Sequence record: PZ049694.1
Source: a phage
Length of the DNA stretch: 64,000 nt
Strand: one strand, 5' to 3'
Shown here: positions 12,066 to 24,851 of the stretch, piece after piece
How positions within the stretch are numbered: position 1 is the first letter of the stretch
Layout: each line of letters begins with the position of its first letter
Position numbers and translations under genes: made by a program
The notes under the pieces: generated by a model
Told to the model about the DNA's origin: nothing
Seen by the model: the letters and a program-made list of their open reading frames with translations, nothing else
Database searches by the model: none

Positions 12066-12647
12066 TTATAACAACCCTGTCAAATCATTCCAATGCTTCC
12101 GGCATAATGACACATATCTATCAGTATCACCAATTTCAATTTGACTGCCATCTGTAATTGGAAGTCCGTCTTCCGTGACTCTAGCTACCATTGTGGCCTT
12201 TTTACCGCAATGACAGACACCTTTAAGTTCAACAAGCTTATCGGCAATAGCCATTAATGCTTGAGAACCTTCAAATAGATTACCTTTAAAATCTGTTCGT
12301 AGTCCATATGCCATTACCGGCACATTGTATACGTCAACAATACGACTAAGTTGATACACCTTTTCAGTAGTTAAGAATTGAGCTTCGTCAACAAATACAC
12401 AATGAATATCCTTTTGTGCTGCAGCCCATTTATAGAATTCAAAGATATCCATGTCTTTTGTAATTATATTGGCGTCCTGACGAATACCAATACGAGAGAC
12501 TATTTCACCTTTTGAATCGCGAGTATCAATAGCCGGTTTAAGAACTAATACACCCATGCCACGTTCTTTATAGTTATGTGCGGCTGTAAGTAATGAAGCA
12601 GACTTACCAGCGTTCATAGCGGCATATGTAAAAATTAAACTAGCCAT
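12066..12647 (-). CDS. tk: thymidine kinase
   Basis: 193 aa; P-loop MNAGKS, VDEAQF, CxCG zinc motif; matches recalled T4 tk. Confidence 0.9.
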   Translation of the reverse strand: MASLIFTYAAMNAGKSASLLTAAHNYKERGMGVLVLKPAIDTRDSKGEIVSRIGIRQDANIITKDMDIFEFYKWAAAQKDIHCVFVDEAQFLTTEKVYQLSRIVDVYNVPVMAYGLRTDFKGNLFEGSQALMAIADKLVELKGVCHCGKKATMVARVTEDGLPITDGSQIEIGDTDRYVSLCRKHWNDLTGLL

Positions 12648-12837
12648 AAGAGTCCTTAGTTAAATTTTCTAAATATGTTTCTAAATCATTTTCGGCTTTA
12701 TCGATAGATTTTACTAATTCGTAGTATGTTTCAGCATCTCCATAATCCGAAGCCAATTCAAAAGATAAATCTCGTTCTAAACTAATAATTTCGCTGATTA
12801 AAAATCGTATTTCATTCTTTTGTTCGCGAGTAATCAT
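12640..12837 (-). CDS. hypothetical acidic protein, 65 aa
   Basis: ORF; overlapping stop/start with neighbours. Confidence 0.5.
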   Translation of the reverse strand: MITREQKNEIRFLISEIISLERDLSFELASDYGDAETYYELVKSIDKAENDLETYLENLTKDSYG

Positions 12838-13040
12838 AAGGAATTTATATAATCAATAAGTTCTTGTTCTTTATCGTCGAAATCTTTACACAGTTCTTCG
12901 TATTCGTCGGTATTAAAAGGACCGCATTCATCGCAAACTTTTTCCAATTCACTATTTTTATCCATAACTTCGTGAATAAGAGAAAACAGTCTGTCTTTTT
13001 GTTCTTTACTTAAACTCATAACCATGTCACCTTTAAGCAA
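12834..13040 (-). CDS. hypothetical acidic protein, 68 aa
   Basis: ORF. Confidence 0.5.
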   Translation of the reverse strand: MLKGDMVMSLSKEQKDRLFSLIHEVMDKNSELEKVCDECGPFNTDEYEELCKDFDDKEQELIDYINSL

Positions 13041-18954: not shown

Positions 18955-19413
18955 TTATAGGAGGGTAGTGAGCACCTTATATAATGATTTGCCCATTACA
19001 TATTCCCATTGAGAAGGTTTAATTAAAGCGAATGCATCAAATTCAGGAATCTGACGTCCGTCTGGGAATGTATGATAGGAATTACAAACACTGTTTCTGA
19101 ATTGCTCGTGCTCTACAGGGATGGTATATAGGAACAGATGAATATTCTTATTGTCTGAGTAATGATGTTCACCTAGGTCTTTCAGGAAGGCAGGGTCATA
19201 TTGTGTAAACCCAGTTTCTTCTTCGCATTCACGAATAGCGGCTTCAATAGGAGATTCGCCAGGCTCGACACGTCCTTTAGGAATATCCCACCGATGAGCT
19301 AAAGAACCTTTAGGACGAGAACCAGTTACACGCCCCATGAATAATTCTTTATCTTCGGTAAGGAAAATAATACCGGCTGATAGTTCTTTCACTTTATTTT
19401 TCTTACTCATCAT
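18955..19413 (-). CDS. nudE: Nudix hydrolase
   Basis: Nudix box GRVEPGESPIEAAIRECEEETGF; immediately upstream of e as in T4. Confidence 0.8.
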   Translation of the reverse strand: MMSKKNKVKELSAGIIFLTEDKELFMGRVTGSRPKGSLAHRWDIPKGRVEPGESPIEAAIRECEEETGFTQYDPAFLKDLGEHHYSDNKNIHLFLYTIPVEHEQFRNSVCNSYHTFPDGRQIPEFDAFALIKPSQWEYVMGKSLYKVLTTLL

Positions 19414-19654
19414 CTCGGTCCCATGATTTGACCATTAATTCGGACATAAATTCTTCAATGCGCGTTTCTTTAGATGGACTTTCACTATTAGAGACCGCAA
19501 GTTTGTAATCTGCAATAGGACAGAACATATCAAGGTCCATATTAAGGTCGTCTTTGATTTTTTCTTCTGACACATCTTTATCGTATGTATACAGATAACT
19601 ATCACACGATTCTGATTTAATGTAAATTGCTATACTCATCTCAAATTCCTGCAT
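19403..19654 (-). CDS. hypothetical acidic protein, 83 aa
   Basis: ORF overlapping both neighbours by a few codons. Confidence 0.45.
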   Translation of the reverse strand: MQEFEMSIAIYIKSESCDSYLYTYDKDVSEEKIKDDLNMDLDMFCPIADYKLAVSNSESPSKETRIEEFMSELMVKSWDRDDE

Positions 19655-20127
19655 TCGGTAATAAAACGTTCAACTTCATTATTCTTGGCTTTTATCTTGT
19701 CTTTATGTTCTTGTAAACTACTTTTAATAAGATTAATAATGATGCCTACAGTACCTCCACCAATTATACCGCCAATTATACTTACGATAGTAGATGCTAA
19801 TAAGATAGCGATAATATCTAGTACAGCAAAGGCACTTACTTTAGTACTAAAAAACCATACCGACGGTACAAATATAATCCATCCTGTTATCCATTGGCAC
19901 TTATTGAAAAACTTTTCAAGCTCAGCTTGAGTTGTTCGTATTACTTCATCGATAGGTTGATATCCATTAATGTATCTATTCACGATAATACCTGCTGGCT
20001 GGTCGATTTTAAATTCTTGGCAAATACGTTTCACTAAGTAGGATGGACATCCTGTCCAATCTACTGAATAGTATGAAATACCTTCGTTGCCATCGTCTAT
20101 ATTAGACCAATATGTTTTGTTAATCAT
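19636..20127 (-). CDS. membrane protein with C-terminal ERFITECR tail motif, 163 aa
   Basis: soluble N-domain, two hydrophobic helices, C-terminus ...NNEVERFITECRNLR; ATGA-coupled to upstream gene. Confidence 0.6.
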   Translation of the reverse strand: MINKTYWSNIDDGNEGISYYSVDWTGCPSYLVKRICQEFKIDQPAGIIVNRYINGYQPIDEVIRTTQAELEKFFNKCQWITGWIIFVPSVWFFSTKVSAFAVLDIIAILLASTIVSIIGGIIGGGTVGIIINLIKSSLQEHKDKIKAKNNEVERFITECRNLR

Positions 20128-20813
20128 TACCAGCCTTCCATAGGGAATTCCAGATAAACTTGAGCGTTGACACGAATTTCATTGGTAATCTTTTTAACTC
20201 GGTCTGTATTACGAGATACACGTCCGAACCAACGCCATCCATTACTAATTGCACGAGAACCAGTGTGCCATGTTTGCCAATCAAACTGAAGAAGAGTACG
20301 GTCCGGAGCTTCCCATTTCTCTAGTTCGCCTTTTTCGATTTTTTCGAGGACTTCTTTGTGCCACTGGCGATAGATAAGTTCGCCATCAGGAATCTGACTG
20401 AACTCCGCAGTTCCTGTTGCAAAATGAGTAGGACACACATCAGCATTAACAAGACCAAGAATATGTTCAGAATGGTAACGAGGGTTGTCATAATCAGGTT
20501 GTCCTGCAGTAATAAAATGTTGTCCTGTTGGAATATCTGGGCGTGGTACGTCATCATGGTGATATCCAGGAATAGCAGGATACCAACCAGGCATCAGCAT
20601 GTGGACTCGTGAATCAAATACTACATCCGAGACTTTCCAATCATCAGGAAGATTTTGGATAAAGCTACGAGTAATCGGGCCGCCATTATCAAAAGCAAAA
20701 TTCAAATCGCAGTTAAAGAACATAGGCTCGTTTTTAATCTGGTCGTTTTTAATCGCATGAGCAAAACCACCTACTGCACGAGCTTGACTATTAAACACTT
20801 TAGAACTATTCAT
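20127..20813 (-). CDS. possible 2OG-Fe(II) oxygenase-fold protein, 228 aa
   Basis: HxD candidate (GYHHDD) then distal His (WHTGSR) and RxS (GRVSR) at plausible spacing; assignment tentative. Confidence 0.35.
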   Translation of the reverse strand: MNSSKVFNSQARAVGGFAHAIKNDQIKNEPMFFNCDLNFAFDNGGPITRSFIQNLPDDWKVSDVVFDSRVHMLMPGWYPAIPGYHHDDVPRPDIPTGQHFITAGQPDYDNPRYHSEHILGLVNADVCPTHFATGTAEFSQIPDGELIYRQWHKEVLEKIEKGELEKWEAPDRTLLQFDWQTWHTGSRAISNGWRWFGRVSRNTDRVKKITNEIRVNAQVYLEFPMEGW

Positions 20814-20814
20814 A

Positions 20815-21120
20815 TTATTTTCCTCGACATTCTTTAATGAAATTTTCTAGATTGGTAGATTCAATAGCTTTTTTACGAGCTTCTGCGTGTTCTTCTTCGG
20901 ACAATTTACGTTTATAATTGACCCAGACATTATGGTCGAAACCAGTCGTGGCATATAATAACAATGCTCCAACGAATAGCAAAAACGGCGATAAGAATAC
21001 AAAACCAGGAACACCATCCATATCGTAAGCCTTTTGTAATACTGCAACAGAAAGAGCTACGTAAAAAGGTGATGCAAGTATTGTTAAAAGACCAATTCGG
21101 TTGGTTTCTGTTAATTTCAT
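20815..21120 (-). CDS. membrane protein with C-terminal ENFIKECR tail motif, 101 aa
   Basis: two hydrophobic helices; C-terminus ...NLENFIKECRGK. Confidence 0.6.
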   Translation of the reverse strand: MKLTETNRIGLLTILASPFYVALSVAVLQKAYDMDGVPGFVFLSPFLLFVGALLLYATTGFDHNVWVNYKRKLSEEEHAEARKKAIESTNLENFIKECRGK

Positions 21121-21457: not shown

Positions 21458-22414
21458 TTATTTGAAAGGTTTTACCATATGGAAATTTTGTTTGAAACGT
21501 TTTACGTAATCGTCGTGTCCTAAGCTTTGGTACATACTTACTACTTTGCTATAATTTTCCCAAGCGAACTCACGGAACCATCCTGATGTGATTGATGTAC
21601 AGACCTTTTCCAATGCCATCATGAAACTGGCTTCAGGGTTAATTTTAAAGTCATTAGGAATCTGAGAACGTTCTAACGCTAGTACACATGATTCTTCATA
21701 TACACCGGCCAATTTGACAATTTCTGGTAACGATTCGAACTTCTCGCGTGAGGTCATGACTTCAGAACCGTCTTTCATATAAAATGTATAAGCCGGACGG
21801 TCTGTTAGTGCAATGGCTTCATGAATAGTATCATGGTCATACGTATAGATGTCATCTTTAAAGAACGCACTTTTAGAAGTGTCAAGAACTGGGTGAGCAT
21901 AGTTCAAGGTTTCTTTCTGGCGTTTCAGCATAATTTCAGTAAGTTCATCGTTCAGTGTAACACCTTTACCACGAAGATACTGAATATGGTTCATAGTCTT
22001 TAAAAAGAATGGATTATTTTTCTTGAAACGATGAGACATCTTAATTGCAAGACATATCTCAGGAGTTGCCCAGTAAAACCCGTTCAAACGGTCTTTAGTC
22101 AAATTTTTCTTGGCGTATTTTAAAAGGTCATAAGAAGACGTGAAATCTTCAGGAGTGAGTTCACCTACTAATTCACGGACATTAGTGATTGCCGGAACAA
22201 TATATGCTTCAAAATGAGTTTCGCGTCCATTATGGAAGCATTTGAAAACTTGGACATCAGGGTTATCTTGGTGAACATATACACCCATCATTTGATTTTT
22301 GAATGCGTTCCAAGAACCTTGGTCCGCAATAAAGTCCCAATCGCTATTTTTGATAGCGCTAGAATCAATAAGACCGTGATAGTGAAGTGCACGAGAACCA
22401 ATAACTAACATCAT
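21458..22414 (-). CDS. hypothetical protein, possible divergent nucleotidyltransferase fold, 318 aa
   Basis: N-terminus MMLVIGSRALHYHG...SDWDF loosely parallels GS...SDVDF of ORF 8644..9657; GAGGA Shine-Dalgarno. Confidence 0.45.
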   Translation of the reverse strand: MMLVIGSRALHYHGLIDSSAIKNSDWDFIADQGSWNAFKNQMMGVYVHQDNPDVQVFKCFHNGRETHFEAYIVPAITNVRELVGELTPEDFTSSYDLLKYAKKNLTKDRLNGFYWATPEICLAIKMSHRFKKNNPFFLKTMNHIQYLRGKGVTLNDELTEIMLKRQKETLNYAHPVLDTSKSAFFKDDIYTYDHDTIHEAIALTDRPAYTFYMKDGSEVMTSREKFESLPEIVKLAGVYEESCVLALERSQIPNDFKINPEASFMMALEKVCTSITSGWFREFAWENYSKVVSMYQSLGHDDYVKRFKQNFHMVKPFK

Positions 22415-22438
22415 AATATTTTCCTCGGATTAATTAAC

Positions 22439-22690
22439 TTAAATTTCACGACATGCGATATTATATTCATCCCAGAGGTCATCGTGTGAAGCCTCTACCA
22501 ATGGAACGATTGTACCATTTATGTCTTCATTATAAGGGCAAATTGTACAGTGCGCATCTTCGAATCGGATACCTTTGTGTTCAGATTTTTTATAACGCAT
22601 ATCGAATATCTTTGCAAATTTTTCACGAGTAATGGTTTTACCAACCACTTTGGTTCCGATACTTTCGTAATAAATCATTGTGGACTCCAT
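22439..22690 (-). CDS. hypothetical Cys-containing protein, 83 aa
   Basis: ORF preceded by a PeSL-like cassette. Confidence 0.5.
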   Translation of the reverse strand: MESTMIYYESIGTKVVGKTITREKFAKIFDMRYKKSEHKGIRFEDAHCTICPYNEDINGTIVPLVEASHDDLWDEYNIACREI

Positions 22691-22740
22691 TTAATTTGAT
22701 AGGACTACTATAACATAGCCCTATCTTGTTGTAAACTGTT

Positions 22741-22938
22741 TTAGCAAGAATAACTAGACGATACCCAGCCTTGAACAGTGATACTATTGTGGGATAATGA
22801 GATCGCGTCCTGGAGATTCAGACCTGCGTTATCTTCAATCCATAACGTAACTTCTTCGCGTTCTTCTGTTGCAATTTGGAACAGGTTTTCCAGAGCAGCT
22901 ACTGCCGTACGTACAGCACAATCTAATTCACGAGACAT
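22741..22938 (-). CDS. small protein, paralog 3 of tandem family ending ...GWVSSSYSC
   Basis: 65 aa; shares N-terminal MS(K/R) and invariant C-terminal GW[VI][SA]SSxxC with 22948..23220 and 23230..23535. Confidence 0.55.
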   Translation of the reverse strand: MSRELDCAVRTAVAALENLFQIATEEREEVTLWIEDNAGLNLQDAISLSHNSITVQGWVSSSYSC

Positions 22939-22947
22939 ATGGTTTCC

Positions 22948-23220
22948 TTAGCAAGTGTGAGAAGATGCGATCCAACCACCAGTTTCGAGGCTTAGGTTGT
23001 AGTCGTATTGGTAAACGTCGGCCCATTCAGCATAGCCGTTTTTTGTACAACGTTCAAGGTCGGCTTTAAGCTGTCCGGGTGAATGATATGTTCCACCCAT
23101 ACCATAAGCTGGATACAAGTCGAATGTTGTGTTTTGTTTATCAGCAATTTCTTTGGCAGCCTCAATAGCTGCATAGATTTTTGCTACAGCTTCGGCCAGT
23201 TCGGTTTGTTCTTTAGACAT
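22948..23220 (-). CDS. small protein, paralog 2 of tandem family ending ...GWIASSHTC
   Basis: 90 aa; tandem with 9-nt spacers; AGGA Shine-Dalgarno. Confidence 0.55.
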   Translation of the reverse strand: MSKEQTELAEAVAKIYAAIEAAKEIADKQNTTFDLYPAYGMGGTYHSPGQLKADLERCTKNGYAEWADVYQYDYNLSLETGGWIASSHTC

Positions 23221-23229
23221 AATGATTCC

Positions 23230-23535
23230 TTAGCACATCGCAGAAGACGAAACCCAAGCACCTTCAGTAATAACGTAACCATTACCTTCACGCTTAACAT
23301 CGCCACCATTATTTTCAATTTCATCTTTCATCCACTGGGATACGATTTCACCCTTAGGATAATAAGTACGACCGCTACCATAATCACCTACAGAAAATGA
23401 TACGGCATATTGGTCCGCGATCTTTGTTGCTTCTTCTTCGATACGTTCAGCTTGATTCAGAAGTTTATAAATTGCATCTGAAGCGGATTTGGCATCATTA
23501 AACTCTGGTACTTTAATTTCAATAATCTTACTCAT
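23230..23535 (-). CDS. small protein, paralog 1 of tandem family ending ...AWVSSSAMC
   Basis: 101 aa; ATGA-coupled to upstream membrane-protein gene. Confidence 0.55.
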   Translation of the reverse strand: MSKIIEIKVPEFNDAKSASDAIYKLLNQAERIEEEATKIADQYAVSFSVGDYGSGRTYYPKGEIVSQWMKDEIENNGGDVKREGNGYVITEGAWVSSSAMC

Positions 23536-23891
23536 TTTCTACATTCCTTAATAAAGTTTTCGATTGTTTCATTTTCACGTCTAGCTAGGAGTTCATTATA
23601 ACTAATCATTTGAGAAGCGTAAACCTTTTTATTTTTCTTGTTATGGTTTATAAAATCGTAGTAAAAATAGACTACAGTACAAAATGATGCGATGGATGCA
23701 AAGGCTTGGGTATACCGTAAGTCCCGCCATTGGTCTATGAATCCGCCAGTGTTACCTATAAATCCTAATACAACTCCGTCAATAAGAAATCCAACTAATC
23801 CAAAGGCAAATCCCATGCCAATACTCATAATAAAAATTAGAATGTTCTCACCAAGAGAAGGCCATACGGTTAAGAGTTGAGGCTTTTGCAT
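23532..23891 (-). CDS. membrane protein with C-terminal ENFIKECR tail motif, 119 aa
   Basis: hydrophobic helices then ...ETIENFIKECRK. Confidence 0.55.
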   Translation of the reverse strand: MQKPQLLTVWPSLGENILIFIMSIGMGFAFGLVGFLIDGVVLGFIGNTGGFIDQWRDLRYTQAFASIASFCTVVYFYYDFINHNKKNKKVYASQMISYNELLARRENETIENFIKECRK

Positions 23892-24295
23892 CTTATTTCC
23901 TTAACGAATTCCATAGCTTCTTCATATTCATACTTTTTAACAGCTTCATCATACTGAGCTTGGGCTTTTGCGCACTGAACTTTCCACTCACGAACTCGGG
24001 CTCTGTGATGACGGCCTTGGTACCAATATCCCACCCAGTTAATAGGCATTAATAAAAATGGTACAATAAACGACCCGGCTATAATAAGTAAAAACACTGC
24101 ATCAGACGATATAACTTTATTGGAATCTAAAATAGCTCCTATAATCATAAAGATTAAAAATGCTAAAGCTAAAATAGGACCAAACAACACTTCATTAGGA
24201 ATTAATTTACGTTTGTATTCGTATGCCCAGGGCTTAATTGGCATGTACAGGGTTGGCTTTGACATATTCTCTACATTCCATAATAAATTGCTCAA
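23870..24295 (-). CDS. membrane protein with related C-terminal motif (EFVKEIRCK), 141 aa
   Basis: two hydrophobic helices; start may be an internal ATG. Confidence 0.5.
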   Translation of the reverse strand: MSNLLWNVENMSKPTLYMPIKPWAYEYKRKLIPNEVLFGPILALAFLIFMIIGAILDSNKVISSDAVFLLIIAGSFIVPFLLMPINWVGYWYQGRHHRARVREWKVQCAKAQAQYDEAVKKYEYEEAMEFVKEIRCKSLNS

Positions 24296-24851
24296 GGATT
24301 AAATTGTTAGTGAAATTAGGACTAACAACCATGGTTTCATAAAGCGCATCAATAGCACTTAAAGCATCAACTCTCTTAAGCAAAGGCTTGCCTTCATACA
24401 TAGTTTCAGAATCGACGATTAAAGTGAAGTAGTATTTTTTATTATTGACCAGAACTTCTGTATCAATATAAAACATGTTAGACCTTAAAAGCTTGTCTCT
24501 AAAGCCTACGTAATCATCTGAACGTTCACTGATATATTCCCATTCAGTGTTTAAACAACAAACAGACCACGTAGGAGCAACGAAATCAGTGAATCTAATA
24601 TCATGATCTGCAACTAATTTAGCAATAGCTCCGATATCATGAATCATAATACCTGGGGCTAATAAAGATTTTCGGCGATTTGCATATTCAGTTGTCTCAT
24701 AAGAAGCTGACCAGTACCATTTACGTCCAGTTGCAACATATCGTAATGAATCAACTAAAGACGTAGGTGGATTTACCTTATTTCGGAACTCTTCGAACAT
24801 TGAGTCAATATCATTATTTTGGTTTCGCATGTTAACTCCTTTATTATCCAA
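24234..24851 (-). CDS. hypothetical soluble protein carrying the same tail motif near its C-terminus (EQFIMECREYV), 205 aa
   Basis: ORF; motif lies 10 aa from the end. Confidence 0.5.
   Translation of the reverse strand: MDNKGVNMRNQNNDIDSMFEEFRNKVNPPTSLVDSLRYVATGRKWYWSASYETTEYANRRKSLLAPGIMIHDIGAIAKLVADHDIRFTDFVAPTWSVCCLNTEWEYISERSDDYVGFRDKLLRSNMFYIDTEVLVNNKKYYFTLIVDSETMYEGKPLLKRVDALSAIDALYETMVVSPNFTNNLILEQFIMECREYVKANPVHAN

What the first reader, a model, noticed from the sequence alone, without database searches (positions are those of the whole stretch)
22741..23535. Tandem triplet of small paralogous proteins ending in GW[VI][SA]SSxxC-stop
Three consecutive genes (101, 90 and 65 aa) separated by 9-nt spacers share an MS(K/R) start, an Ala/Glu-rich helical N-region and a near-invariant C-terminus (EGAWVSSSAMC, TGGWIASSHTC, VQGWVSSSYSC) whose last residue is always Cys. 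Serine codons differ (tct versus agt), so the conservation is at the protein level. The first gene is ATGA-coupled to a tail-motif membrane protein. A divergent leader with a conserved C-terminal core ending in Cys is reminiscent of modified-peptide precursors or of proteins that form a C-terminal thioester or disulfide, but no modifying enzyme is demonstrated.
Basis: seen in the sequence. Interest (0 to 1): 0.7.

Follow-up and report, generated by a model that had tools for sequence, protein, structure and literature searches.

The report
Cys-tailed phage protein array plus enzyme
Three small neighbouring phage genes belong to a large uncharacterised virus-only protein family that always ends in the same tail, with cysteine as the last residue, and that almost always sits beside one enzyme-like gene, which points to an undescribed two-part phage system.

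Summary
Three minus-strand genes of 101, 90 and 65 aa are real paralogues under purifying selection. Each ends in W-x-[S/A]-S-S-x-x-Cys-stop.

The window comes from a Mosigvirus, an RB69/JS09-like relative of phage T4. The triplet lies in the early e.2–e.3 region.

It has about 790 clusters at 50% identity. Of 142 new representatives, 133 end exactly in Cys. Members occur in T4-like, rV5-like and jumbo phages and in Pseudomonas, Stenotrophomonas and Acinetobacter phages. None was found in a motif-seeded scan of 185,579 prokaryotic species genomes.

The AlphaFold model is confident (pLDDT 91.6) but matches no solved fold. No Pfam or NCBIfam family matches.

The main new result is genetic linkage. 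Arrays of 1–6 copies lie within about 2.5 kb, on the same strand, of a roughly 300-aa DUF7277+DUF7275 protein. In the window this gene is at 21458–22414. This held in all 27 evaluable viral loci and in every Proteobacteria- or CPR-type enzyme locus checked. T4 has neither gene. The partner carries a nucleotidyltransferase-like G-S…D-x-D motif.

Best reading: a substrate/carrier-plus-enzyme module acting on the Cys tail. The chemistry is unknown. A classical RiPP precursor is unlikely.

The parts
23230..23535 (-). Gene A: 101-aa Cys-tail protein (RB69 ORF139c/138c orthologue), pI 4.6, ends WVSSSAMC
   Evidence: ORF; phrog_899 E 2e-23; homologues; AF2 pLDDT 91.6; dN/dS 0.11 against JS98
22948..23220 (-). 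Gene B: 90-aa Cys-tail protein (RB69 ORF137c orthologue), archetypal YGMGGTY form, ends WIASSHTC
   Evidence: phrog_899 E 1.9e-18; dN/dS 0.22
22741..22938 (-). Gene C: 65-aa short Cys-tail protein (RB69 ORF136c orthologue) that lacks the Gly-rich loop, ends WVSSSYSC
   Evidence: phrog_4882 E 7.7e-37; BLASTP to A and B E 5e-4 to 8e-4; dN/dS 0.28
21458..22414 (-). 318-aa DUF7277 (N-terminal, G-S...D-x-D nucleotidyltransferase-like motif) plus DUF7275 (C-terminal, invariant H128, H194-D195, H198, E240/E241, E248-R249, C272) protein; the conserved genomic partner of the Cys-tail family
   Evidence: Pfam E 4.3e-79 and 9.9e-28; alignment A5 invariants; linkage tests; C272 correlation
22439..22690 (-). 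83-aa ORF (phrog_3723) between the array and the enzyme gene; found only in the closest relatives, so membership of the module is doubtful
   Evidence: BLAST finds it only in JS98 among the compared loci
23595..23623 (-). T4-early-type promoter-like site (A-rich, GTTTACG, 17 nt, TATAAT) about 60 nt upstream of gene A, inside the e.3-like gene
   Evidence: the match to the T4 early-promoter consensus is from general knowledge
22707..22735 (-). Second early-promoter-like site (GTTTACA, 17 nt, TATAGT) directly after gene C, ahead of the 83-aa ORF and the enzyme gene
23532..23891 (-). e.3-like 119-aa membrane protein whose stop overlaps gene A's start (ATGA); local context only, not conserved with the family outside close T4 relatives
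   Evidence: RB69 annotation 'e.3 predicted membrane protein'; 36% identity to T4 e.3

Best explanation
A, B and C are three diverged copies of a phage-restricted family of small (about 65-105 aa), acidic, cytoplasmic alpha/beta proteins. What defines the family is an invariant tail, W-x-(S/A/P)-S-S-x-x-Cys, at or one residue from the C-terminus. The family works together with the neighbouring DUF7277/DUF7275 protein (window 21458-22414). That protein looks like a metal-dependent nucleotidyl- or phosphoryl-transfer enzyme. The most likely arrangement is enzyme plus an array of substrate or carrier proteins. In this picture the enzyme recognises the common tail and acts on its Ser hydroxyls or its terminal Cys thiol. 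The variable bodies of the paralogues give each copy a different downstream partner or target. The module is transcribed early in infection and is accessory, which suggests a role in host takeover or counter-defence.

Shown here: real genes under purifying selection; the family's size and its invariant tail; a confident model with no known fold; near-obligate same-strand adjacency to the enzyme gene across very distant phages; and absence of both genes from T4.

Inferred: physical or functional interaction, enzymatic modification of the tail, the nucleotidyltransferase nature of the partner, early timing, and any biological role.
For: 1. Family and tail. A profile search found 791 clusters at 50% identity. 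Of 142 new representatives, 133 end exactly in Cys, 8 end in Cys plus one residue, and one (P0091) lacks the terminal Cys, ending ...GWVCSSSQY. In the 133, W(-7) is present in 132, S(-4) in all 133 and S(-3) in 131.

2. The tail is the only element shared by every subtype. It is present in the long YGxGGTYY forms, in the short C form that lacks that loop, and in two-motif forms such as ...DWLNSSCYGEE...WYPSSC. A common tail on variable bodies suggests a common recognising partner.

3. Forward linkage. Starting from tblastn hits to the enzyme, Cys-tail ORFs lie within about 2.5 kb on the same strand in Mosigvirus, a JGI jumbo-phage contig, Erwinia jumbo phage Kaldavass, Aeromonas-type T4-likes, Pseudomonas Otagovirus PN09, Phapecoctavirus, Stenotrophomonas Yut3 (downstream of the enzyme gene there), Acinetobacter Lazarusvirus and Pseudoalteromonas H101.

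4. Reverse linkage. Starting from the small family, 27 of 27 evaluable IMG/VR loci carry the enzyme gene 0-2 kb downstream, with HMM E-values of 1e-88 or better.

5. Enzyme hits in prokaryotic assemblies. In a third set, all 8 Proteobacteria/CPR-type loci have a Cys-tail ORF or a recognisable variant next to the enzyme gene.

6. Only these two gene families are shared between the window's neighbourhood and the distant loci.

7. tblastn record counts per genus nearly coincide for the small protein and the enzyme: Escherichia 253/260, Aeromonas 59/59, Klebsiella 34/35, Enterobacter 34/36, Shigella 18/18.

8. T4 has neither gene anywhere in its genome. Its nudE-e.2-e.3-e.4 locus lacks the whole insertion.

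9. Distant enzyme homologues (actinophages, a roseophage, Vibrio XZ1, actinobacterial chromosomes) instead sit next to 1-4 copies of a different small-protein family. The enzyme therefore seems always to come with a small-protein array.

10. Across 12 distant homologues the enzyme keeps G6-S7, D25-x-D27, K125, H128, H194-D195, H198, E240-E241 and E248-R249 invariant. This is the pattern expected of a catalytic protein. Some depositors label it 'putative nucleotidyltransferase'.

11. Cys272 of the enzyme is present in 47 of 47 enzymes linked to Cys-tail proteins. It is Ile or Val in 9 of 10 enzymes linked to the other small family.

12. T4-early-type promoter-like sites flank the triplet.
Against: - There is no direct evidence of interaction or modification. 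Adjacency in phage genomes can reflect shared mobility or co-regulation rather than shared biochemistry.
- The nucleotidyltransferase/HD reading rests on short motifs only. There was no Pfam NTase or HD hit, no PDB hit with a profile, and hhalign against E. coli Cca and GlnD gave probability 0.1. The single-sequence AF2 model failed at pLDDT 37.
- The tail is modelled as part of the fold (strand 93-96, short helix 97-100, pLDDT about 90). It is not a free arm, which is less typical of an enzyme substrate tail.
- The second small family has no Cys tail, so the enzyme's function cannot depend on a terminal Cys in all lineages.
- The Cys272 correlation is confounded by clade.
- Single copies are dispensable: RB69 has gene A frameshifted.
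Confidence: 0.45

Rival explanations
1. The small proteins are stand-alone inhibitors or decoys that act directly on host or defence proteins. The terminal Cys would serve as the warhead or ligand, for example by coordinating a metal in a target active site, forming a disulfide, or assembling a shared metal site in a coiled-coil oligomer. Under this reading the DUF7275 gene is only a co-travelling neighbour that acts in the same pathway or on the same target.
For: - The proteins are small and acidic (median pI 4.5, net charge -8).
- They lie in an early, hypervariable region and are accessory, diversifying in arrays of 1-6 copies. Single copies can be lost. This is a typical profile for phage anti-defence or host-takeover genes.
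- Longer members have coiled-coil-like N-terminal extensions.
- The tail is modelled as part of the fold.
Against: - It does not explain the near-obligate same-strand adjacency to one enzyme-like gene across T4-like, rV5-like, jumbo, Otagovirus, Menderavirus and CPR-associated contigs.
- It does not explain why distant versions of that gene carry another small-protein array instead.
- There were no PADLOC-related or structural hits that suggest a target.
Confidence: 0.2
2. The small proteins regulate or neutralise the enzyme, in an antitoxin- or adaptor-like manner. The DUF7277/7275 protein would be the effector, for example a nucleotidyltransferase acting on host tRNA, RNA or proteins. The Cys-tail proteins would bind it to inhibit, time or retarget its activity.
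For: - Tight two-gene linkage, with the small genes usually upstream.
- From general knowledge, nucleotidyltransferase-fold toxins with small protein partners are known (MenT/MenA, AbiEii/AbiEi, MNT-HEPN).
- The enzyme often lies near RNA ligase, polynucleotide kinase or tRNA genes.
- The co-variation of enzyme Cys272 with the partner family is compatible with a direct contact.
Against: - Up to 5-6 diverged paralogues per single enzyme gene is unusual for a 1:1 regulator.
- An invariant extreme-C-terminal tail on otherwise variable bodies looks more like a recognition or reaction site than an inhibitor surface.
- No similarity to any known toxin-antitoxin family was found.
Confidence: 0.12
3. 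Each protein would be a precursor whose last roughly 8 residues, after the frequent G-G, form a core peptide. That core would be dehydrated or cyclised (a Ser-to-Cys lanthionine, or C-terminal Cys decarboxylation as in AviCys) and then released.
For: - The tail has Ser residues 3-4 positions before a C-terminal Cys. G-G precedes W in most members. From general knowledge this resembles S/T-x-x-C-COOH substrates of LanD-type enzymes and double-glycine leader cleavage sites.
- Several precursor-like genes sit beside one enzyme-like gene, an arrangement seen in some RiPP clusters.
Against: - The 'leader' is a confidently folded conserved domain (alignment).
- The conserved part is the putative core and the variable part is the body, which is the reverse of most RiPP families.
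- No LanB/C/M/D, YcaO, radical-SAM, protease or exporter genes are nearby.
- Two-motif members carry the motif internally.
- Eight representatives tolerate an extra residue after Cys.
Confidence: 0.08
4. The proteins are structural or oligomerisation modules. The C-terminal hairpin (NGYVITEGAWVSSSAMC) would act like the T4 fibritin foldon (QAYVRKDGEWVLLSTFL) at the end of a coiled coil, as part of a virion or assembly factor.
For: - A recalled sequence resemblance of a beta-hairpin with G-x-W-V near the C-terminus.
- A long N-terminal helix.
- Sub-threshold hits to tail-fibre-related entries: Pfam E217_Gp32 at E 0.01 and PDB Phi92_gp137 at E 0.051.
- One depositor's label, 'tail completion protein'.
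Against: - All those hits are below significance thresholds.
- The first strand of the hairpin is not conserved in the family.
- The genes lie in the early non-structural e-segB region behind early-type promoter-like sites.
- Copy number varies and copies are lost.
Confidence: 0.02

Closest known systems
GlnD (uridylyltransferase/uridylyl-removing enzyme) acting on the small PII protein
   Same: An enzyme with a nucleotidyltransferase domain followed by a His/Asp-rich helical (HD) domain acts on a hydroxyl residue of a roughly 100-aa protein. This would be the logic here if the G-S...D-x-D and H...H-D...H motifs mean what they suggest.
   Different: - There is no detectable homology: hhalign probability is 0.1.
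- The small proteins have an unrelated fold with no PDB match.
- They come in arrays of paralogues with a C-terminal Cys tail and are phage-only.
- No modification has been shown.
E1-like enzyme plus ubiquitin-like or sulfur-carrier protein (ThiF-ThiS, MoeB-MoaD)
   Same: A small protein whose function depends on an invariant extreme C-terminus is encoded next to an enzyme that has a nucleotide-transfer motif and a conserved Cys. The position at the very end of the chain is under selection.
   Different: - The tail ends in Cys, not Gly-Gly.
- There is no beta-grasp fold.
- The partner has no ThiF/MoeB domain.
- Eight representatives tolerate one residue after Cys, and two-motif members carry the motif internally, so the thiol rather than the alpha-carboxylate seems to be the key group.
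RiPP clusters with several precursor genes and one modifying enzyme; lanthipeptide/AviCys S/T-x-x-C-COOH cores
   Same: Tandem diverged small genes sit beside one enzyme-like gene. The tail has Ser and a C-terminal Cys, often preceded by G-G.
   Different: - The body is a folded conserved domain.
- The invariant part is the 'core' rather than the leader.
- No known RiPP enzyme, protease or transporter is present.
- The proteins are cytoplasmic phage early genes.
Acyl carrier proteins with their holo-synthases, including CitX/MdcG nucleotidyltransferase-fold holo-ACP synthases and the HD-family ACP phosphodiesterase AcpH (general knowledge)
   Same: Small acidic proteins with an invariant Ser and a thiol used for chemistry, serviced by NTase-fold or HD-type enzymes.
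   Different: - The thiol here is a genetically encoded terminal Cys, not a phosphopantetheine arm.
- The fold is alpha/beta, not a four-helix bundle.
- There is no PP-binding Pfam hit.
PHROG families phrog_899 and phrog_4882, and Pfam DUF7277/DUF7275
   Same: These are the database clusters that already contain these proteins.
   Different: All are labelled 'unknown function'. In the libraries and the paper collection searched, nothing records the Cys tail, the tandem arrays or the linkage between the two gene families.

Membership tests
PHROG phrog_899 / phrog_4882 (uncharacterised phage protein clusters) | Significant profile match | tested here: met
   A E 2e-23 and B E 1.9e-18 to phrog_899 (C-terminal part of a 221-position profile); C E 7.7e-37 to phrog_4882
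RiPP precursor peptide (lanthipeptide / AviCys type) | Short precursor with an unstructured or recognition leader and a separate core | tested here: not met
   AF2 models residues 15-100 as one alpha/beta domain at pLDDT 91.6 that includes the tail. The body has its own conserved motifs.
RiPP precursor peptide (lanthipeptide / AviCys type) | A known modifying enzyme (LanB/C/M/KC/L, LanD/HFCD, YcaO, radical SAM) encoded nearby | tested here: not met
   Pfam, NCBIfam and PHROG scans of the neighbours give only DUF7277/DUF7275 and unknown-function clusters. Only that gene is co-conserved.
RiPP precursor peptide (lanthipeptide / AviCys type) | Ser/Thr placed 2-4 residues before a C-terminal Cys | tested here: met
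   S(-4) is present in all 133 and S(-3) in 131 of 133 representatives, with Cys last
RiPP precursor peptide (lanthipeptide / AviCys type) | Post-translational modification and release of the core | not testable with these tools
   Needs mass spectrometry
Ubiquitin-like / sulfur-carrier proteins (ThiS, MoaD) | Beta-grasp fold and a C-terminal Gly-Gly | tested here: not met
Pol-beta-type nucleotidyltransferase superfamily (for the 318-aa partner) | hG[GS]...[DE]h[DE]h plus a third acidic residue on a strand | tested here: met
   G6-S7 and D25-x-D27 are invariant in 12 distant homologues. An acidic residue in an h-E-h context follows in most of them (HFEAYIV in the window protein).
Pol-beta-type nucleotidyltransferase superfamily (for the 318-aa partner) | Profile- or structure-level similarity to known members | tested here: inconclusive
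   No Pfam NTase hit up to E = 10; no PDB profile hit; hhalign to Cca and GlnD probability 0.1; AF2 single-sequence pLDDT 37. The only other support is depositors' labels.
HD-domain phosphohydrolases (for DUF7275) | H...HD...D metal-binding signature in an all-helical domain | tested here: inconclusive
   H128, H194-D195, H198 and E240/E241/E248 are invariant, but there is no profile or structural support
T4 fibritin foldon-like trimerisation hairpin | Structural match to the foldon; conserved hairpin residues; virion context | tested here: not met
Acyl carrier protein | PP-binding four-helix bundle with a D-S-L-type Ser | tested here: not met
   No Pfam PP-binding hit; the model is alpha/beta
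Known anti-phage defence components (PADLOC) | Profile match | tested here: not met
   No match, apart from one chance-level hit at E 0.01 and 12.5 bits

The most novel reading that the evidence does not exclude
Phages of Gram-negative and CPR bacteria carry an undescribed protein-tail chemistry system. In it, a DUF7277/DUF7275 enzyme (nucleotidyltransferase-like, with a conserved Cys) loads, modifies or relays a group on the genetically encoded terminal thiol or the adjacent Ser residues of an array of small 'Cys-tail' carrier proteins. That would make it a virus-specific analogue of carrier-protein, ubiquitin-like or PII-type systems, used early in infection against the host or its defences. 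A second, unrelated small-protein family would replace the Cys-tail proteins in actinophages.
Probability: 0.3. Interest if true: 0.85.

Novelty: categorically new. Interest (0 to 1): 0.7.

Why it matters
If the link is functional, this is a widespread two-component system with no studied counterpart. It has about 790 sequence clusters and occurs in many unrelated large lytic phages, including common E. coli, Klebsiella, Enterobacter, Aeromonas, Acinetobacter and Pseudomonas phages used in therapy collections.

A protein family selected to end in Cys, paired with a dedicated enzyme, suggests either a new post-translational chemistry or a new way for phages to target host factors.

It also gives two Pfam DUFs and two PHROGs a concrete hypothesis that can be tested with simple experiments: co-expression, intact-mass MS and point mutants.

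Even if the small proteins turn out to be ordinary inhibitors, the invariant tail and the strict synteny remain useful annotation rules.

Tried and rejected
- **Family libraries for A, B and C.** Pfam, NCBIfam and PADLOC gave nothing above threshold. Peptidase_S78_2, E217_Gp32 and MS_channel_3rd were sub-threshold noise.
- **PDB by sequence.** The best hit was Phi92_gp137 at E 0.051, with no significant domain, so it was rejected.
- **Enzyme structure.** The single-sequence AF2 model of the 318-aa protein failed (pLDDT 36.8) and was not used.
- **Enzyme classification.** The profile search against PDB found 0 hits. Pfam at E up to 10 gave only the two DUFs. hhalign against E. coli Cca and GlnD gave nothing.
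- **Homology between the two small-protein families.** hhalign probability was 0.1, so this was rejected.
- **Literature.** Searches for ORF names, DUF and PHROG numbers, motif strings and keyword combinations found nothing relevant.
- **Informative domain fusions.** Longer family members (131-175 aa) have only coiled-coil-like extensions.
- **Foldon idea.** Rejected; see the rival explanations.
- **'Sulfurtransferase' label on the e.4 homologue in phage F27.** Not supported by any scan here and not pursued.
- **Genome scan for the small family in prokaryotes.** No relatives were found.
Full report
**Where the window comes from.** Bases 22400-24300 are 96-97% identical to many Mosigvirus genomes. 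These are RB69/JS09-like members of Tevenvirinae that infect Escherichia, Shigella and Klebsiella. Annotated relatives place the region between the lysozyme/nudE genes and the tRNA/segB cluster, among T4 e.1-e.6 homologues. Compared with T4 (nudE-e.2-e.3-e.4), this phage has an insertion between the e.2-like and e.3-like genes. Read on the minus strand from e.3, the insertion holds the three genes of the finding, an 83-aa ORF, a 318-aa ORF, a 72-aa ORF, a 101-aa membrane protein and a 228-aa ORF.

**Checking the observation.** The three ORFs lie on the minus strand at 23230-23535 (A, 101 aa), 22948-23220 (B, 90 aa) and 22741-22938 (C, 65 aa).
- They begin MSK, MSK and MSR and end EGAWVSSSAMC, TGGWIASSHTC and VQGWVSSSYSC.
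- Each ends TGC TAA. The next three bases, GGA, complete a TAAGGA ribosome-binding site for the following gene. The spacers are 9 nt, and all three genes share one reading frame.
- Gene A's ATG overlaps the TGA of the e.3-like membrane protein.
- The tail pattern occurs three times in the window against 0.003 expected, and never in 300 shuffles.
- Pairwise BLASTP supports paralogy (E 1e-4 to 8e-4).
- dN/dS is 0.11-0.28 against phage JS98 and 0-0.13 within Mosigvirus, so these are translated genes under purifying selection.

**The family.** Word-indexed searches found about 60 clusters. An exhaustive profile search found 791 clusters at 50% identity with E ≤ 0.001.
- Of 142 new representatives, 133 end exactly in Cys and 8 end in Cys plus one residue. 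One, P0091, lacks the terminal Cys and ends ...GWVCSSSQY. In the 133, W at -7 is present in 132, S at -4 in all 133 and S at -3 in 131. Position -5 is S, A or P.
- The usual body is an N-terminal helix ending ...(I/V)AD(E/K)(Y/H)..., then F-x-F, a Gly-rich Y-G-(M/S)-G-(G/R)-T-Y-Y loop, a variable acidic stretch and (G)-G-W-x-S-S-S-x-x-C.
- Gene C represents a short subtype without the Gly-rich loop. Other phages have a two-motif subtype, such as ...EDWLNSSCYGEE...KIWYPSSC. The tail is therefore the one element common to all subtypes.
- The proteins are acidic, with median pI 4.5 and net charge -8.
- tblastn finds them in Mosig-, Dhaka- and Karamvirus, in Klebsiella, Serratia, Edwardsiella, Yersinia, Citrobacter and Aeromonas T4-likes, in rV5-like phages and in Pseudomonas syringae phages.
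- A motif-seeded scan of one genome for each of 185,579 prokaryotic species found no relative. On current evidence the family is virus-only.
- There is no Pfam, NCBIfam or PADLOC match. The PHROG clusters 899 and 4882 are unannotated.

**The key finding is a constant neighbour.** I looked up two distant homologues in their contigs, a 361-kb jumbo-phage contig and a 159-kb Aeromonas-type T4-like. In both, the gene was followed by a second diverged family member and then a roughly 300-aa protein with Pfam DUF7277+DUF7275. The window's 318-aa ORF at 21458-22414 is the same protein (Pfam E 4e-79 and 1e-27). I tested the association three ways.
1. *Starting from the enzyme.* I took tblastn hits from different phage groups (734 records in all) and scanned ±5 kb with a family HMM and a tail pattern.
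   - Cys-tail ORFs lie within about 2.5 kb on the same strand in Mosigvirus, the jumbo contig and Erwinia phage Kaldavass.
   - The same holds for the Aeromonas-type contigs, Pseudomonas Otagovirus PN09 (4 copies), Phapecoctavirus (3 copies), Stenotrophomonas Yut3 (2 copies, downstream) and Acinetobacter Lazarusvirus (2-3 copies).
   - In diverged form (...EWYESRC) one is also present in Pseudoalteromonas H101.
   - JS98 and a Klebsiella phage carry 5 and 5-6 copies.
2. *Starting from the small family.* In IMG/VR, 28 loci were found. All 27 with enough sequence have the enzyme gene 0-2 kb downstream.
3. *Starting from the enzyme in prokaryotic assemblies.* Fourteen loci were found. The eight Proteobacteria/CPR-type contigs all have a Cys-tail ORF or an evident variant directly beside the enzyme gene.

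Three further observations fit this.
- Only these two gene families are shared between the window's neighbourhood and the distant loci.
- Per-genus record counts for the two genes almost coincide: Escherichia 253/260, Aeromonas 59/59, Klebsiella 34/35, Enterobacter 34/36 and Shigella 18/18.
- T4, scanned in full, has neither gene.

**A second partner family.** The most distant enzyme homologues come from Gordonia and Streptomyces phages, a roseophage, Vibrio phage XZ1 and six actinobacterial contigs. They have no Cys-tail gene. Instead they are flanked by 1-4 paralogues of a different small protein (consensus ...GGEGQGDEYW.VF...R.FRK.GYY.SW.GG.YDG...EV.P.E.T.T.Y). That protein is not in Pfam and is not detectably related to the Cys-tail family. 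In this sample the enzyme always travels with an array of small proteins, which argues for a functional pairing rather than chance synteny.

**What the enzyme-like protein may be.** Across 12 distant homologues the invariant residues are G6-S7, D25-x-D27, K125, H128, K139, H194-D195, H198, E240-E241, E248-R249 and T273.
- The N-terminal pattern is hydrophobic strand-G-S, then D-x-D, then an acidic residue on a strand. This is the signature of Pol-beta-type nucleotidyltransferases (general knowledge). Some depositors use that label.
- The C-terminal H...H-D...H plus acidic residues recall HD phosphohydrolases.
- I could not confirm either assignment. There was no Pfam hit beyond the DUFs, no PDB profile hit and no hhalign signal to E. 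coli Cca or GlnD. The single-sequence AlphaFold model was unusable.
- One further correlation: Cys272 (K-V-C-T-S-I-T-S-G-W) is present in 47 of 47 enzymes linked to Cys-tail proteins but is Ile or Val in 9 of 10 linked to the other family. This is compatible with a thiol-thiol relationship, but it is confounded by clade.

**Expression context.** An A-rich GTTTACG-17 nt-TATAAT site lies about 60 nt upstream of gene A. A GTTTACA-17 nt-TATAGT site follows gene C. Both fit the T4 early-promoter consensus (general knowledge). Early expression is therefore likely but not shown. RB69 itself carries a frameshift in gene A, so individual copies are dispensable.

**Interpretation.** The best-supported reading is a two-part module. 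An array of small proteins, defined by a common Cys tail on variable bodies, works with one enzyme that recognises and probably acts on that tail. Ser hydroxyls are the natural acceptors for a nucleotidyltransferase, and the terminal thiol is the other candidate. I put this at about 0.45 overall. Within that, I rate the functional linkage at roughly 0.7 and covalent modification of the tail at roughly 0.3.

The rivals are:
- stand-alone inhibitors that use the Cys directly on a host target (0.2);
- regulators or antitoxin-like partners of the enzyme (0.12);
- true RiPP precursors (0.08);
- a foldon-like structural role (0.02).

The RiPP reading is weakened by three things: the folded and conserved body, the absence of any known RiPP machinery, and the internal copies of the motif. 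It is not excluded.

**Comparison with known systems.** In logic the module resembles several enzyme/small-protein pairs: GlnD-PII, E1-ThiS/MoaD, holo-ACP synthase-ACP, and RiPP clusters with several precursors and one enzyme. It fails every membership test that could be run for those families. In the libraries and paper collection searched, the two gene families appear only as unannotated clusters (PHROG 899 and 4882; Pfam DUF7277 and DUF7275), and nothing records the tail or the linkage. I therefore rate it as lying outside known kinds. The caveat is that the biochemical function is still unknown.

Noticed in passing
window 23532-23891(-), 20815-21120(-), 23870-24295(-), 24234-24851(-): Several membrane or small proteins around the triplet share a C-terminal motif: ...ENFIKECRK, ...ENFIKECRGK, ...EFVKEIRCK..., ...EQFIMECREY. 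JS98 and Klebsiella homologues have ...TFIKECKS and ...FLKEMRK. The AAG GAA (K-E) codons also serve as the Shine-Dalgarno of the next overlapping gene, so part of this motif may be constrained at the nucleotide level.
   Followed up: partly
L014 6217-6612; L015 5549-5905, 6402-6713, 7004-7324; L016 4618-5818; L017 4360-4653; L061-L066: A second family of small paralogous proteins flanks the distant DUF7275 homologues of actinophages, a roseophage, Vibrio phage XZ1 and actinobacterial chromosomes, in place of the Cys-tail family. Its consensus is GGEGQGDEYW.VF..R.FRK.GYY.SW.GG.YDG..EV.P.E.T.T.Y. It has no Cys tail and is not in Pfam.
   Followed up: partly
window 21458-22414(-), residue C272 of the 318-aa protein: The Cys in K-V-C-T-S-I-T-S-G-W is present in 47 of 47 enzymes that neighbour Cys-tail proteins. 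It is Ile or Val in 9 of 10 enzymes that neighbour the second small family. The correlation is confounded by clade.
   Followed up: partly
window 22741-23535(-); L019 3784-4794; L022-L031: In Mosig- and Dhakaviruses the successive family genes all lie in one reading frame, separated only by TAA plus 9 nt (C-stop-G-[NK]-x-M...). In Klebsiella- and Karam-type phages the genes overlap in different frames. This probably reflects in-register tandem duplication. Read-through was not tested.
   Followed up: no
RB69 (AY303349) 69737-70040; P0002, P0020: The RB69 reference genome has gene A split by a frameshift into ORF139c and ORF138c. Phage mar005P1 has a shortened 75-aa B. Individual copies are therefore dispensable.
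   Followed up: no
window 12640-12852(-); T4 tk.1 (L069 10547-10750): A 70-aa ORF (phrog_653, the T4 tk.1 homologue) has ...LSFELASDYGDAETYY..., which resembles the family's F-x-F...YGxGGTYY segment. It lacks the Cys tail. The HMM E-value is only about 0.005, so it may be a remote relative or chance.
   Followed up: partly
window 19403-19669(-); L003 5750-6001; L011 3277-3531: An 88-aa acidic ORF next to nudE is about 30% identical (E 1e-7) to the ORF lying directly upstream of the Cys-tail genes in two jumbo phages. It could be a third, loosely linked component.
   Followed up: no
window 20127-20813(-) and 22439-22690(-): Two further unknowns lie in the same insertion relative to T4. One is a 228-aa His/Trp-rich protein (phrog_1843, RB69 ORF132c-like). 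The other is an 83-aa protein with an HCTIC...C pattern (phrog_3723). Both are conserved only among close T4 relatives and have no Pfam match.
   Followed up: partly
L004, L009, L014 (flanks): NAD-salvage genes (nicotinamide phosphoribosyltransferase, with or without a cytidylyltransferase-like gene) lie within 5-6 kb of the module in three unrelated phages. RNA-repair genes (RNA ligase, polynucleotide kinase, phosphoesterases) are also nearby in L014 and in jumbo phages L003 and L011. Whether this is more than the usual clustering of early metabolic genes was not tested.
   Followed up: no
L001 7475-7870 (phage F27 homologue of window 23870-24295): The e.4-like membrane protein is annotated 'sulfurtransferase' in phage F27. 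No scan here supports that label.
   Followed up: no
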